In this document: positions 28,801 through 31,800 of the stretch, piece by piece
Numbering within the stretch: position 1 is the stretch's first letter
Layout: each line of letters begins with the position of its first letter
Source of the DNA: Schmidtea polychroa
Lineage: Eukaryota
Assembly: GCA_044892525.1 (NCBI GenBank)
Contig: CM097885.1
Span: 2,048,001-2,112,000 of the forward strand
Direction: 5' to 3'
DNA length: 64,000 nt
Position numbers and translations under genes: made by a program
The notes under the pieces: model-generated
Seen by the model: the letters and a program-made list of their open reading frames with translations, nothing else
Told to the model about the DNA's origin: nothing
Databases searched by the model: none

Positions 28801-31800
28801 AGAAGGAACTGTTACGAGCTCTATTTCGGATTCGGGCTGAACGTCTGTTCTACCATTGTGTAAATAGTGAAGTACACCACTGATATTTGTTCACCTTTGT
28901 CTATGCAAGTAATGAGAGCTTAATAGAATTTTTGACTTATAACGTTGTTAGCATTTTTAAGTTTTTATAACATAAAGGTTATGGCATCATCGGCTGTGAA
29001 CAGGCTAGCATCCGGACGGTAAAGGGCCTCGATTGTTGCTTTTACTGTGACTAGAGCACTAGTAATAACGGATATCATTTTATTCTCATCATTAGAAAAA
29101 GCAAAAGATTCACCTCAGGTAGACTTATGACTATTGGTAAATTATGAGCTCAATGCGCGTCTGTGTGCGCGTTGTATTGTGTGATGGGTTTGTGTGCGCA
29201 CACAGACGCGAGCAATGTCATTTTTTGGGTCAAATTATTAGTTTATCTCGCGTCTGTGTGCGCTTTTCTTTTCTTTGTTTTTGGCTTGTGTGCGCACACA
29301 GACGCGAGCAATAGGTATGGCAATTTTATTAATTAGTTTTTTGTGATGTTGTAATTTTTAGATTTTATCGATTTTTGAATTTATGATGAGTTATGTTTCG
29401 AGTTAATGGAGTGGAATAATTTGGTTTTCTTATGATTTTTCGGATAAAAGATGGCTGCTCTTAATGAAGAAATGGAAATGGGAAATACTACCAACGAAAC
29501 TGATGGTTCCTTTTTTATGACCCCAAGAGATCCTGATAATGTTAATGGTGTTATTGGCCAACTAATATTAAATTTATTTGGTGGATGGATTTCCGTTGGT
29601 ATTCGATGCAATAATTGTGATGTAGTAGCTACACAAAGAAAGGTTCCAGATAAAATGATTGAGAAGAGTTCAGCTACAAGGTTGTTTAATATTAATGAAA
29701 GTACTGGAGGTGTCATGACTGGTATGATCACTGATTATCGATATCAAGTATGTCGTGCACAAATGGAAGCAGCTCGATTTAGATATAAACATGGATATGA
29801 AATGCCTTGTGACATAATATGTCGTTCTATTGCGGATATTATTCAGCTTTATTCCCAATCAACTGGGATGCGACCATTAGGTTGTTCAATGATGGCATTA
29901 TCTTATGGTATTGAAATGGACAAACTGTTGTTATTCAAAACTGGCTCTGTAGATGGAAATAAAATTATTATTCGTTATCTTGAATTTAAACAACTATCAA
30001 TGCCTTTGTATACAATTCTTTAATAAATCGACACGTTCATGCATTGACACAAAACTGTTCCACCTAATCTTGCAATCTTTTATTCGAGTTATTTGCTTCC
30101 AAAATTTAGCCGCAACATATTTCTGCAAGATATCGTTTTTTGTTGATCATTGGACCGGAATTTACCTCAGTAACAACACGTTGGTTTCCTCCATGCCTAT
30201 GACCAGAATGGAGATCAACCAATTTTTCATCCTCGTTACTCTCCTATAAATCTTGTTCTACTTCTGACTGTTCATCTTGCTATATATCCTGCTGTTGATA
30301 TACTACTTCAATTACGGCCCAGTTGCACATATAACTGCTGATTCACAAGTAATACTCTCCCAACCTTTTTCATTACACTTGCTCCGTCAGTCATAATTCC
30401 GACGATATCTTTTCGCAAATCAAGTCCATATTTTGCAATCTTTTGTTCTAGGCGCTGATTATATTTATCTGCAGGCATTGAACCTGTTATTTGAAATAAG
30501 CCTAAGCTCCAGAACTGACAATTCATTCATGCACCGGCGGTTAAGTAGCGATGTCCATTCATCAAACGAAAAGGAAAATCTCTCACCTACACCGAATTCA
30601 GGGTTTTATTACCATCTATTTCAGTGATTAAAGAATTTTTTTTTTGCTTTAAAATTATCAAAAACAACAATCACGTTGTTAGTATCTTCTTTTCGCGAAC
30701 TTCGAGTGTTAATTGCATCAATCATTAAATTATAAATAAATTCACACTTTCAAAAATATATATTTTGTTACACAATATTTAAACAAAGTTAGGAGAATCC
30801 AAACTGTGCAATTTTTCTTGACAAGATCTTTTTAAATATTCATAAATATTTTTAATTACAGTATTTTTTTTATTTTTTTTTTAAATTAATTTCAATTATA
30901 TTTAATAAAACTTTATGAGACTTTTTATTGTAATTTTAAATTTGATTTTAACTATTCTAATATTTAAAAGTTTTACTTGATAATTGTTTTTACTCTAAAA
31001 GAATTTTTTCCTTTAAAAAATACTTCTTTTATTACAATTAATTTATAGAAATCTTTAAAGTATTTTTAAACATCTCCCAAACGTTAAGAGCAATTAGATT
31101 ATAAATGCCAAAAACCAAAAAAATTAAGAATGTAATTGCAAATTGCAATATTGAAAAAAAGTTCCAAATATTATCATCGTGACAAAATTCAAATCTCAAA
31201 CGAAAAAATTTCAATTTCAAAATGTTCAACCAAATACGAATTTTTTAAAGAATTTTTCAGTAAACTGTAAATTAATTTTCCGTTTAGGCTTCGAAAGTCA
31301 AATCCCGGGATTCCAAACGCTAGTTGCAATAATAATGCCAAATGATTTGTAATTTTTATATATTTATTAATGATATGAAGAATTTAATTTTAATTTAAGT
31401 CTTTTAACTTAATTTTCTATATTTTCTAACATATTTTCTGGGAGAAGAAAGATTCAATCAGAGCAGAAGAAGAGAAAAAAGGCTTGTTAATTTTGTATTG
31501 GAGTAATCAGGAGTTAAATATGTCATTTTATGAATAAATACTCCATATTGGCTTAAATATTTTTTATTTGAATTTTATTTTAATAAATGATTCTTTTGTT
31601 GACAAGTTTTTTTTTAAATTTGTGAGGAGTTAAAATTCAAATGTTAAATTAAAATTATTTCATGATTAAATTTTGTAAAATCAAAAGTGAAACTTAAATT
31701 ATTTGAAATATATTAGAATTAAAATAGTTTAATTTTGAAATAAAATTAATTTTAATAAAATTGCAATTCAAGTATGGATGTGGTATGTTGATATTTGGTT

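What the first reader, a model, noticed from the sequence alone, without database searches (positions are those of the whole stretch)
29121..29993. Second cassette of the same family, with a swapped N-terminal module, inserted cleanly into a hAT transposase
Seen: the same GC-rich leader motif (GCGCACACAGACGCGAG, four copies in alternating orientation at 29155-29310), the same PSMA6 fragment and the same tail (DGNKIII vs DANKIVI) ending at the equivalent CAA, but a different 5' coding module instead of Rab1. Removing 29121-29993 rejoins the hAT frame (ALID|LR) with no evident TSD, TIR or poly(A). Inference: a mobile gene-fragment-shuffling element with a defined 3' end and exchangeable cargo, not matching clear Helitron, LTR or LINE hallmarks.
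Basis: partly seen in the sequence, partly recalled or inferred. Interest (0 to 1): 0.82.

Follow-up and report, generated by a model that had tools for sequence, protein, structure and literature searches.

The report
Solo LTR carrying captured gene fragments
The "cassette" is a lone long terminal repeat left behind by a BEL/Pao-type retrotransposon whose repeats carry pieces of spliced host genes, read in one frame with a captured ubiquitin and the capsid gene: an unusual variant of a well-known kind of mobile DNA.

Summary
The described sequence is real, but it is not a new class of element. Window 29135-29992 (858 bp) is a solo LTR. It starts TG and ends CA, and is flanked by a 5-bp target duplication, ACTAT. 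Three uninterrupted copies of the host repeat show the empty site. The family is very abundant: 2477 first-look candidates, of which 40 were scored at 87-95% identity. Full-length copies have two LTRs, a 21-nt primer binding site for initiator tRNA-Met, a polypurine tract and a BEL/Pao Gag (DUF1759, triple Cys-His box).

The "first cassette" (10491-11495, minus strand) is a solo LTR of a sister family.

The unusual part is the reading frame. It begins inside the LTR and crosses host-mRNA fragments. These are proteasome alpha-6 with its intron precisely removed, plus Rab1, SNF8/EAP30 or a RING-E3 piece depending on the LTR variant. The frame then runs through the primer binding site and a ubiquitin ending in GG into Gag, or Gag-Pol in an autonomous relative with a 2189-aa frame.

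The host fragments evolve neutrally, whereas ubiquitin is constrained. I infer a translated "stuffer-ubiquitin-Gag" fusion cut by host deubiquitinases. The claim of no TSD and no LTR hallmarks does not.

The parts
29130..29134 (.). left copy of the 5-bp target-site duplication ACTAT
   Evidence: Uninterrupted copies of the host repeat carry one copy of the pentamer (TCTAT); the window has ACTAT on both sides of the insert.
29135..29992 (+). solo LTR (858 bp, TGG...ACA) of a BEL/Pao-type LTR retrotransposon family ('family 2')
   Evidence: 2477 first-look candidates, 40 scored, 87-95% identity, all ending at the same bases; sharp ends, TSDs, PBS or PPT next to copies in full-length elements; no internal (gag) sequence anywhere in the window.
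29993..29997 (.). right copy of the target-site duplication ACTAT
29154..29212 (+). first GC-rich hairpin (two inverted copies of the 17-nt leader motif)
   Evidence: motif positions; two long stems of 16-17 pairs in the minimum-energy and centroid folds, z = -3.86; motif arms 92-99% conserved among 30 copies, against 77-86% for 29313-29430.
29247..29308 (+). second GC-rich hairpin (two inverted copies of the leader motif)
29451..29992 (+). LTR-borne open reading frame (ATG at 29451), open to the last base of the LTR. In this solo copy it runs on into the flank to the stop at 30021-30023.
   Evidence: open from the ATG to the LTR end in 23 of 30 copies; the length classes 542, 551 and 524 nt all keep the frame.
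29481..29586 (+). module shared with a RING-finger E3 ligase-derived repeat (source of most of the '[19 protein letters not shown]...' N-terminus)
   Evidence: 106 nt, 89% identical to L071:642-747. RING-finger Pfam matches near threshold in the same L071 frame. Atlas leads to RNF115-like E3 ligases, scores 0.77-0.80, which are leads only.
29576..29943 (+). fragment of spliced proteasome alpha-6 (PSMA6) mRNA: part of exon 2 plus part of exon 3, with intron 2 absent
   Evidence: aligns to the host gene L069:563-973 with 340 of 368 bases identical and one 43-nt gap that is exactly the GT..AG intron; exon/intron structure of the host gene.
29958..29963 (+). AATAAA, conserved about 30 nt before the LTR end in all LTR variants; inferred polyadenylation signal
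   Evidence: Sequence read. The function is inferred.
10491..11495 (-). the 'first cassette': solo LTR (1005 bp, TGTTTCGACC...TTATTCA) of sister family 1, lying in an (ATT)n microsatellite
   Evidence: 3072 first-look candidates, 40 scored; sharp ends, 11 copies with perfect 5-bp TSDs, PPT or PBS beside others; no internal sequence in the window.
10538..10878 (-). PSMA6 mRNA fragment inside the family-1 LTR
   Evidence: LTR1 618-958 against host gene 619-984. (PF00227, E 9.6e-15).
10879..11155 (-). Rab1-like (Ras family) fragment that opens the family-1 LTR frame
   Evidence: (PF00071, E 1.1e-30).
28332..29134 (-). decayed interspersed repeat (hAT-like), part downstream of the insertion on its own strand
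   Evidence: 84 first-look candidates, 40 scored at 85-87% identity; only a weak hAT dimerisation match.
29993..30750 (-). the same decayed repeat, other side of the insertion
   Evidence: The outer limit near 30750 was not verified.

Best explanation
Window 29135-29992 is a solo LTR. It is the single repeat left after the two LTRs of an integrated BEL/Pao-type retrotransposon recombined and removed the internal part. The element had inserted into an old, already decayed hAT-like repeat and duplicated the pentamer ACTAT. As a solo LTR it can no longer move.

Its family is peculiar in one respect. The polyprotein frame starts inside the LTR, at the ATG at 29451. It passes through segments copied from spliced host mRNAs. 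It leaves the LTR in frame, reads through the tRNA-iMet primer binding site and a roughly 110-125-codon linker, then through a captured ubiquitin ending in ...LRLCGG, and continues into Gag. In an autonomous relative it continues into Gag-Pol.

Inferred steps, not shown:
(i) Transcription starts upstream of the ATG and ends at the AATAAA about 30 nt before the LTR end. The coding part of the LTR would then be a long R region present at both ends of the RNA.
(ii) Host pieces entered, and were exchanged, by reverse-transcriptase template switches to co-packaged mRNAs while R was being copied. That would place them in both LTRs.
(iii) The LTR-coded part is a translated but sequence-indifferent leader.
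(iv) Host deubiquitinases cut after the ubiquitin GG and release Gag or Gag-Pol.

My odds: solo LTR of a BEL/Pao family 0.93; capture from spliced mRNA 0.9; translation as one fusion 0.6; ubiquitin used as a cleavage site 0.5.
For: Identity as an LTR:
- Sharp common ends and high copy number.
- Empty site and TSD.
- Of 29 other copies, 25 had both ends found. Of these, 14 have identical 5-bp flanks, 6 are followed by TGGTAGCAGAGCGTGG..., 4 are preceded by AAGGGGGGAGGA and 1 has none.
- LTR pairs 2.9-4.2 kb apart, 98-100% identical over the stretch compared.
- The PBS is complementary over 21 nt to the 3' end, with CCA, of a tRNA-Met(CAT) gene of this genome.

BEL/Pao:
- Gag has PF03564.
- It has the triple Cys-His box named as the Pao/BEL hallmark in PMC554778 (passages read): CX2CX3HX4C, CX2CX4HX4C and CX4CX3HX4H in the family-1 copy.
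- All 12 database relatives of the Gag carry PF03564, and 11 of 12 also carry PF05380 (Pao peptidase).

Capture from mRNA: intron 2 of the host alpha-6 gene is missing exactly, with 92% identity.

Fusion frame:
- A 1153-aa frame runs LTR - PBS - ubiquitin - Gag in L068.
- 33 of 68 scored gag copies have open frames of 1100 aa or more, and 19 have exactly 1153 aa. Only L068 was inspected.
- The autonomous relative has 2189-aa frames. Its 5' part shows the same hairpin motif, an LTR-borne frame, an in-frame PBS and ubiquitin, and is 94% identical to family 3 from the PBS onward.
- Indels between LTR subfamilies are 9, 18 and 6 nt.
- The linker is stop-free in an AT-rich genome but has pN/pS 0.86. 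Ubiquitin has 0.34. The alpha-6 fragments against the host gene give 0.43-1.28, from small counts.
Against: - No transcript ends were seen. The public runs were contigs only and their RNA status is a guess. U3/R/U5 limits and use of the LTR ATG are therefore inferred.
- None of the 4 full-length copies of the window's own family 2 (L031-L034) has the whole frame intact.
- Pairwise dN/dS among family-2 LTR frames is 0.77. Intact frames in 23 of 30 young copies can be explained by age alone.
- Methionines lie just before and just after ubiquitin, so translation could start downstream of the LTR.
- One copy (L031) has GD instead of GG.
- The pol part of the autonomous relative was not read here. 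It was only matched to P0124 at 45% identity.
- The searches returned the best-scoring copies, so the counts are not a random sample.
Confidence: 0.85

Rival explanations
1. The LTR frame is not part of the polyprotein. Translation starts at a methionine near or after ubiquitin. The open frame through the LTR, the PBS and the linker only reflects how young the copies are.
For: dN/dS among LTR frames is 0.77, about 1 against the host gene, and 0.86 in the linker. Methionines are present in ...GVMGFELRW... before ubiquitin and in ...EEEMWKK... after it. No transcript or peptide data are available.
Against: Four differently built LTR variants (families 1, 2 and 3, and the autonomous one) all enter ubiquitin in the same frame. 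Three indels between subfamilies are all multiples of three. A linker of about 125 codons without a stop is unlikely in DNA of roughly 30% G+C. 33 of 68 gag copies keep 470 or more open codons upstream of gag.
Confidence: 0.3
2. The captured pieces are working decoys. Truncated proteasome alpha-6, a RING E3, ESCRT-II SNF8 and Rab1, released by ubiquitin cleavage, would disturb host protein turnover or vesicle traffic to the element's advantage.
For: All identified modules belong to ubiquitin-proteasome or endosomal traffic. Every variant examined keeps an alpha-6 piece, and the autonomous LTR has a 24-29-nt stretch similar to alpha-6 exon 3.
Against: The fragments are truncated within domains, and the Rab piece has an internal gap. 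They change mostly at non-synonymous sites: 22 amino-acid changes from 28 nucleotide differences, counted by eye, and dN/dS of about 1. Abundant housekeeping mRNAs are the likeliest passengers by chance.
Confidence: 0.08
3. One reading: a new kind of cassette-like mobile element that shuffles gene fragments and is neither LTR, LINE nor Helitron.
For: Exchangeable 5' modules and a fixed 3' tail are real.
Against: TG..CA ends, 5-bp TSDs, PBS, PPT, paired copies around a BEL/Pao gag, and an autonomous gag-pol partner.
Confidence: 0.02
4. A LINE-made processed pseudogene of PSMA6, or a local segmental duplication.
For: The alpha-6 piece lacks its intron.
Against: There is no poly(A) tail. The ends are fixed and the TSD is always 5 bp. 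There are thousands of candidates on all four large contigs. The two window copies belong to different families.
Confidence: 0.01

Closest known systems
BEL/Pao LTR retrotransposons (for example Sinbad of Schistosoma; the 'Flow' families reported from a planarian)
   Same: TG..CA LTRs. Gag with DUF1759 and a triple Cys-His box. Relatives with Pao peptidase, RT and integrase. Hallmarks taken from passages of PMC554778. Planarian BEL/Pao families are mentioned in passages of PMC3118150.
   Different: The frame begins about 540 nt inside the LTR, carries host-mRNA pieces, and has ubiquitin in front of Gag. None of the 12 Gag relatives retrieved lists a ubiquitin domain. Most copies lack pol.
LTR-mediated retroposition: chimeric retrocopies made by template switching (Tan et al. 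2016, PMC5131818; abstract and outline read)
   Same: Spliced host mRNA pieces joined to LTR-retrotransposon sequence. Several parental genes combined. In-frame products.
   Different: The cases described there are retrocopies flanked by discontinuous LTR-element sequence. Here the chimeras sit inside the LTR itself, stayed mobile and reached thousands of candidates. Junction microsimilarity could not be tested for most joints.
Bs1 of maize and the gag-onc fusions of acutely transforming retroviruses (recalled; 'Bs1' appeared only as a search term and no text was read)
   Same: Pol-less LTR elements that carry host gene fragments fused to gag and depend on a helper.
   Different: In those the cargo is internal. 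Here it lies in the terminal repeat, upstream of the primer binding site.
Yeast Ty1 (recalled, not checked here)
   Same: The gag frame starts inside the 5' LTR and reads through the primer binding site.
   Different: In Ty1 only a few dozen bases of the LTR are coding and none is host-derived.
Cellular ubiquitin insertions in pestivirus polyproteins (passages of PMC5381556 read)
   Same: A host ubiquitin monomer captured by recombination into a viral polyprotein, where cellular ubiquitin C-terminal hydrolases cut behind it.
   Different: That is an RNA virus, and the cleavage was shown experimentally. Here it is a retrotransposon and the cleavage is inferred from the kept GG end and the constraint on ubiquitin.

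Membership tests
LTR retrotransposon (the window feature as a solo LTR) | Terminal TG...CA | tested here: met
   29135 TGG... and ...ACA 29992. The same ends occur in the copies.
LTR retrotransposon (the window feature as a solo LTR) | Short target-site duplication of fixed length, and an empty site in paralogous copies | tested here: met
   ACTAT on both sides; three uninterrupted host-repeat copies have it once. 14 of 25 complete family copies have perfect 5-bp TSDs.
LTR retrotransposon (the window feature as a solo LTR) | In full-length relatives: two LTRs, a tRNA primer binding site after the 5' LTR, a polypurine tract before the 3' LTR | tested here: met
   The PBS is a 21-nt complement of the tRNA-Met(CAT) 3' end plus CCA.
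LTR retrotransposon (the window feature as a solo LTR) | Solo state: no internal sequence adjoining | tested here: met
   No gag, PBS or PPT anywhere in the window. The flanks are the two halves of one host repeat.
BEL/Pao superfamily | Gag with DUF1759 and a triple Cys-His box | tested here: met
   PF03564, E 3.4e-13. Three boxes in the family-1 copy. In families 2 and 3 the last His of box 3 is Asn. Motif definition from PMC554778.
BEL/Pao superfamily | Pol with Pao-type peptidase (A17), RT, RNase H and integrase in that order | tested here: inconclusive
   Most copies have no pol. The autonomous relative matches P0124 (PF05380, PF00078, PF03564) over residues 21-1238 at 45% identity inside 2189-aa frames. 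Its own pol was not fetched or scanned.
Helitron | 5' TC and 3' CTRR ends with a hairpin before the 3' end; insertion between A and T without TSD | tested here: not met
   The ends are TG and CA, and a 5-bp TSD is present. Family features recalled.
LINE-made processed pseudogene | Poly(A) tail, variable 5' truncation, TSD of variable length | tested here: not met
   No poly(A). Fixed ends and a fixed 5-bp TSD.
hAT transposon (the interrupted host repeat) | Transposase with a hAT C-terminal dimerisation domain | tested here: inconclusive
   PF05699, E 0.15, 12.3 bits against a cut-off of 21.4. TIRs and 8-bp TSD were not examined.

The most novel reading that the evidence does not exclude
An active BEL/Pao lineage has turned a long terminal redundancy into an exchangeable coding leader. 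Pieces of host mRNAs are swapped in and out by template switching and are translated in front of a captured ubiquitin. The ubiquitin serves as a host-cleaved joint that releases Gag or Gag-Pol. This would be a retrotransposon counterpart of the ubiquitin insertions of pestiviruses. The released host fragments (proteasome alpha-6, RING E3, ESCRT-II, Rab1) may possibly act on the cell.
Probability: 0.3. Interest if true: 0.8.

Novelty: new variant of a known kind. Interest (0 to 1): 0.58.

Why it matters
It turns an apparent 'new class of gene-shuffling element' into an ordinary solo LTR, and that is the main verdict.

The family behind it is nevertheless worth a specialist's look, for four reasons:
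- It shows exon shuffling by an LTR retrotransposon that stayed mobile and multiplied, rather than producing single dead-end retrocopies.
- The cargo sits in the terminal repeat.
- The element appears to use a stolen ubiquitin as a processing site in front of Gag. In seven literature searches I found no description of this for retrotransposons. Repbase and subscription journals could not be searched.
- For annotation, thousands of LTR-borne frames with proteasome, Rab, SNF8 or ubiquitin similarity will be mis-called as host genes unless they are masked.

Tried and rejected
- RNA evidence: no RNA holder was listed. Four runs were laid, but all were contigs of guessed type. They show no starts, ends or strand. 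Poly(A) loose ends at L033:4488 and 4716 in one run were not interpretable.
- Host source genes: two loose-end strings were used as patterns to look for them. Both turned out to be repeats themselves, with 96 and 175 matches. They led to further LTR variants (L053, L071) rather than to single genes.
- The host alpha-6 gene was then found with the C-terminal part of P0002.
- A search for ubiquitin-Gag fusions elsewhere was swamped by polyubiquitins.
- The gag-only search gave 12 relatives, none with ubiquitin. That is a small sample and no proof of absence.
- The LTR-coded 225 aa of the autonomous relative stayed unidentified. Pfam gave only sub-threshold matches. Atlas scores were 0.77 or lower. 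One hit among 1.84 billion representatives was a repetitive protein matched over about 45 residues.
- L072, chosen as a possible intact family-2 copy, begins its frame only at the PBS.
- Pfam did not confirm the hAT label.
- The LTR protein search found only 3 proteins, so the family is hardly represented in the protein collection.
- Earlier scan notes: none for this genome.
- The non-coding against coding divergence (13% against 3%) is inflated by indels in the repeat-rich leader. I rely instead.
- The automatic TSD rule for family 1 stopped at an internal copy of the tail motif in 8 loci, which therefore could not be judged.
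Full report
**What is in the window**

The region is AT-rich eukaryotic DNA, 25-36% G+C in most 2-kb bins. The window is positions 2,048,001-2,112,000 of the largest contig of a 781-Mb assembly with four very large contigs. Size, chromosome number and composition recall a planarian flatworm. This is recalled, not tested, and nothing in the argument depends on it.

- The 17-nt GC-rich motif occurs four times in alternating orientation between 29154 and 29308, and twice at 11364-11427. 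None is expected by chance.
- The frame from 29451 contains a proteasome-subunit fragment. The other cassette contains a Ras/Rab fragment plus the same proteasome fragment.
- The two share 251 nt at 90% identity.

**Boundaries, target duplication and empty site**

A search of the organism's own genome with 29121-29993 gave 2477 first-look candidates. The 40 that were scored are 87-95% identical.
- In 29 fetched copies the similarity stops at the same bases. It starts at TGG(T/A)AAATTATGAGCTC (window 29135) and ends at GAATTTAAACA (window 29992). One subfamily adds TGAACA at the end.
- The window copy is flanked by ACTAT on both sides (29130-29134 and 29993-29997).
- Three uninterrupted copies of the interrupted host repeat read ...GACTTATGTCTATCAATGCC..., with the pentamer once.
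- Of the 29 other copies, 4 lacked a recognisable end. Of the remaining 25, 14 have identical 5-bp flanks (two pairs of these are duplicated loci). Six are followed by TGGTAGCAGAGCGTGG..., four are preceded by AAGGGGGGAGGA, and one has none of these.

So the element is 858 bp with TG...CA ends and a 5-bp TSD. The 'no TSD' statement is wrong.

**It is an LTR**

Pairs of copies lie 2.9-4.2 kb apart and are 98-100% identical over the stretch compared. Between them the order is:
1. the TGGTAGCAGAGCG... site;
2. a ubiquitin domain (PF00240, E 1.9e-21);
3. a coiled-coil stretch;
4. a Gag with DUF1759 (PF03564) and Cys-His boxes;
5. the purine run.
There is no pol.

The site after the 5' LTR is complementary over 21 nt to the 3' end, with CCA, of a tRNA-Met(CAT) gene of this genome. 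By its sequence this looks like the initiator tRNA, which is recalled.

All 12 database relatives of the Gag carry DUF1759, and 11 of the 12 also carry the Pao peptidase PF05380. Most have RT and integrase as well. The Gag carries the triple Cys-His box given as the Pao/BEL hallmark in PMC554778 (passages; sequence).

The window holds no internal sequence of the family. The feature is therefore a solo LTR.

The 'first cassette' (10491-11495, minus strand, 1005 bp, TGTTTCGACC...TTATTCA) is likewise a solo LTR, of a sister family.
- It gave 3072 first-look candidates, of which 40 were scored.
- It has its own TSDs: 11 perfect by an automatic rule, 8 loci not evaluable, and several off by one inside microsatellites.
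- It has the same PBS and a similar PPT.
- Its own flanks (TTATT and ATTAT) lie in an (ATT)n tract and are ambiguous.

**Where the coding pieces come from**

The host proteasome alpha-6 gene was located at L069. It has four exons and three short introns.
- LTR positions equivalent to window 29576-29943 align to it with 340 of 368 bases identical. There is a single 43-nt gap, which is exactly intron 2, GT...AG. The piece was therefore copied from spliced mRNA.
- Another LTR variant (in L053) carries a longer alpha-6 piece that also spans intron 1. It is about 98% identical to the gene.
- Most of the N-terminal '[19 protein letters not shown]...' stretch (window 29481-29586) is 89% identical to part of yet another repeat, L071. 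That repeat has 175 pattern matches. Its frame continues into a RING finger. Atlas leads point to RNF115-like E3 ligases, with scores of 0.80 or less, which are leads only.
- A third LTR variant opens with an SNF8/EAP30 fragment (PF04157, E 3.8e-9) joined to alpha-6 exon 2. The same chimera exists as a 168-aa protein from a public contig, P0003.

It concerns variants of an LTR.

**The reading frame**

The frame that starts at the LTR ATG is open to the last base of the LTR in 23 of 30 copies. Its three length classes (542, 551 and 524 nt) and the 6-nt terminal extension all preserve the frame.
- In L031 it continues without a stop through the PBS and ubiquitin, 486 aa in all.
- In L033 one in-frame stop interrupts an otherwise continuous 955-codon frame.
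- In the SNF8 variant L068 the frame is intact for 1153 aa, from the LTR to the end of Gag.
- Of 68 scored gag copies (out of 1412 first-look candidates), 33 lie in open frames of 1100 aa or more. Nineteen are exactly 1153 aa. Only L068 was read.
- The family-1 copy has the same plan with two ubiquitin units, the first nearly canonical and ending LRLRGG.

An autonomous relative exists. Frames of up to 2189-2238 aa match a BEL/Pao gag-pol protein. The 5' part of one such copy (L073) shows the hairpin motif, a 230-codon LTR-borne frame of unknown origin, the PBS in frame, ubiquitin and Gag. It is 94% identical to the SNF8 variant from the PBS onward. The architecture is therefore a property of the replication-competent lineage and not only of its defective derivatives.

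**Selection**

| Segment compared | Ratio |
|---|---|
| Alpha-6 fragments against the host gene | dN/dS 0.43-1.28, small counts, pooled about 0.9 |
| Family-2 LTR frames among copies | dN/dS 0.77 |
| Linker between PBS and ubiquitin (7 copies, 21 non-independent pairs) | pN/pS 0.86 |
| Ubiquitin (same 7 copies) | pN/pS 0.34 |
| Stretch after ubiquitin (same 7 copies) | pN/pS 0.59 |
| Gag core, family 3 against family 2 | 0.46 |

The GG end is kept in 6 of 7 copies.

The pattern is as follows. The leader is kept open, but its sequence does not matter. Ubiquitin and Gag are constrained.

Gag cores of family 1 and family 3 are only 39% identical. Their LTR alpha-6 parts and Gag C-termini are much closer. 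The lineages have therefore exchanged modules.

**How it most likely works**

Shown:
- LTR identity;
- mRNA origin of the alpha-6 piece;
- the continuous frame;
- constraint on ubiquitin.

Inferred:
- All variants keep AATAAA about 30 nt before the LTR end, and the start codon lies in the LTR. The coding part of the LTR should therefore be R, present at both RNA ends, with a very short U5.
- The most variable part of the LTR is 29313-29430, just upstream of the ATG. The hairpin arms are 92-99% conserved and fold into two long stems of 16-17 pairs. This fits a U3 with conserved elements and a start site shortly before 29451.
- The R-U5 of both LTRs is copied from minus-strand strong-stop DNA, which is established retroviral replication. 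Two template switches to a co-packaged mRNA while R is copied would therefore put a host piece into both LTRs. This is the mechanism proposed for LTR-mediated retrocopies (PMC5131818; abstract read).
- Ubiquitin fusions are cut after GG by cellular hydrolases, as reported for ubiquitin captured by pestiviruses (PMC5381556; passages). I therefore propose that the leader-ubiquitin part is removed from Gag or Gag-Pol in this way.

**Comparison and novelty**

As an object, the finding is a solo LTR of a BEL/Pao family, which is a known kind. The family differs from described BEL/Pao elements in three ways: about 540 coding bases inside the LTR, host-mRNA mosaics there, and a ubiquitin in front of Gag.

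The nearest precedents are:
- LTR-mediated retroposition;
- Bs1 and gag-onc fusions (recalled);
- Ty1, whose gag starts in the LTR (recalled);
- pestivirus ubiquitin insertions.

Seven literature searches turned up no ubiquitin-Gag retrotransposon. Repbase, where planarian BEL families were deposited according to a reference seen, could not be consulted.

I rate it a new variant of a known kind. The finding as stated is largely explained. The family is of moderate to good interest.

Noticed in passing
G000:C1:79326093-79386739 (locus L070 is one unit): The tRNA-Met(CAT) gene that matches the elements' primer binding site sits in a head-to-tail array with a 454-bp period. The exact 19-mer of its 3' end occurs 1228 times in the genome.
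   Followed up: partly
loci L036, L044, L049, L054, L055, L057, L062, L021, L025; window 10336-10490: Many LTR copies of both families lie inside (ATT)n/(AAT)n microsatellites. This is either a target preference or simply the abundance of such tracts in this genome.
   Followed up: no
L031:1115-1432 and L031:5919-6611: One full-length family-2 copy sits in the RT/RNase H frame of an unrelated LTR element. About 28 codons of the target (…KKIKEIQDAEIPVCAKQLRSFLGMTNYYR) stand on both sides, and its 5' LTR lacks the first ~25 nt. This is an aberrant integration or a later rearrangement.
   Followed up: no
L073:1438-1466: The LTR of the autonomous relative holds a 24-29-nt stretch about 90% identical to the alpha-6 exon-3 part of the other LTRs (…ATATGTGCTTCTATTGCGGAAAATAAAATT…). 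This may be a remnant of the same capture, or a microsimilarity used in recombination.
   Followed up: partly
family-1 copy (L046+L059) against L068: The Gag cores of the two families are 39% identical with saturated synonymous sites. Their Gag C-terminal parts are 77% identical and their LTR alpha-6 parts about 90%. This points to recombination between distant lineages.
   Followed up: partly
window 46765-48496 and 50448-52101: A direct duplication about 3.56-3.68 kb apart, 89-98% identical in several blocks.
   Followed up: no
window 58422-59364 and 31970-32800: A tandem repeat with a 214-bp unit next to an 18-bp TCAAGGTCATTTAT-type array, and a long 17-bp-period array.
   Followed up: no
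P0003 (public contig of 826 bp): A predicted 168-aa protein in the public collection is the SNF8/EAP30 plus alpha-6 chimera of the family-3 LTR. It is an example of these LTR frames being called as genes.
   Followed up: partly
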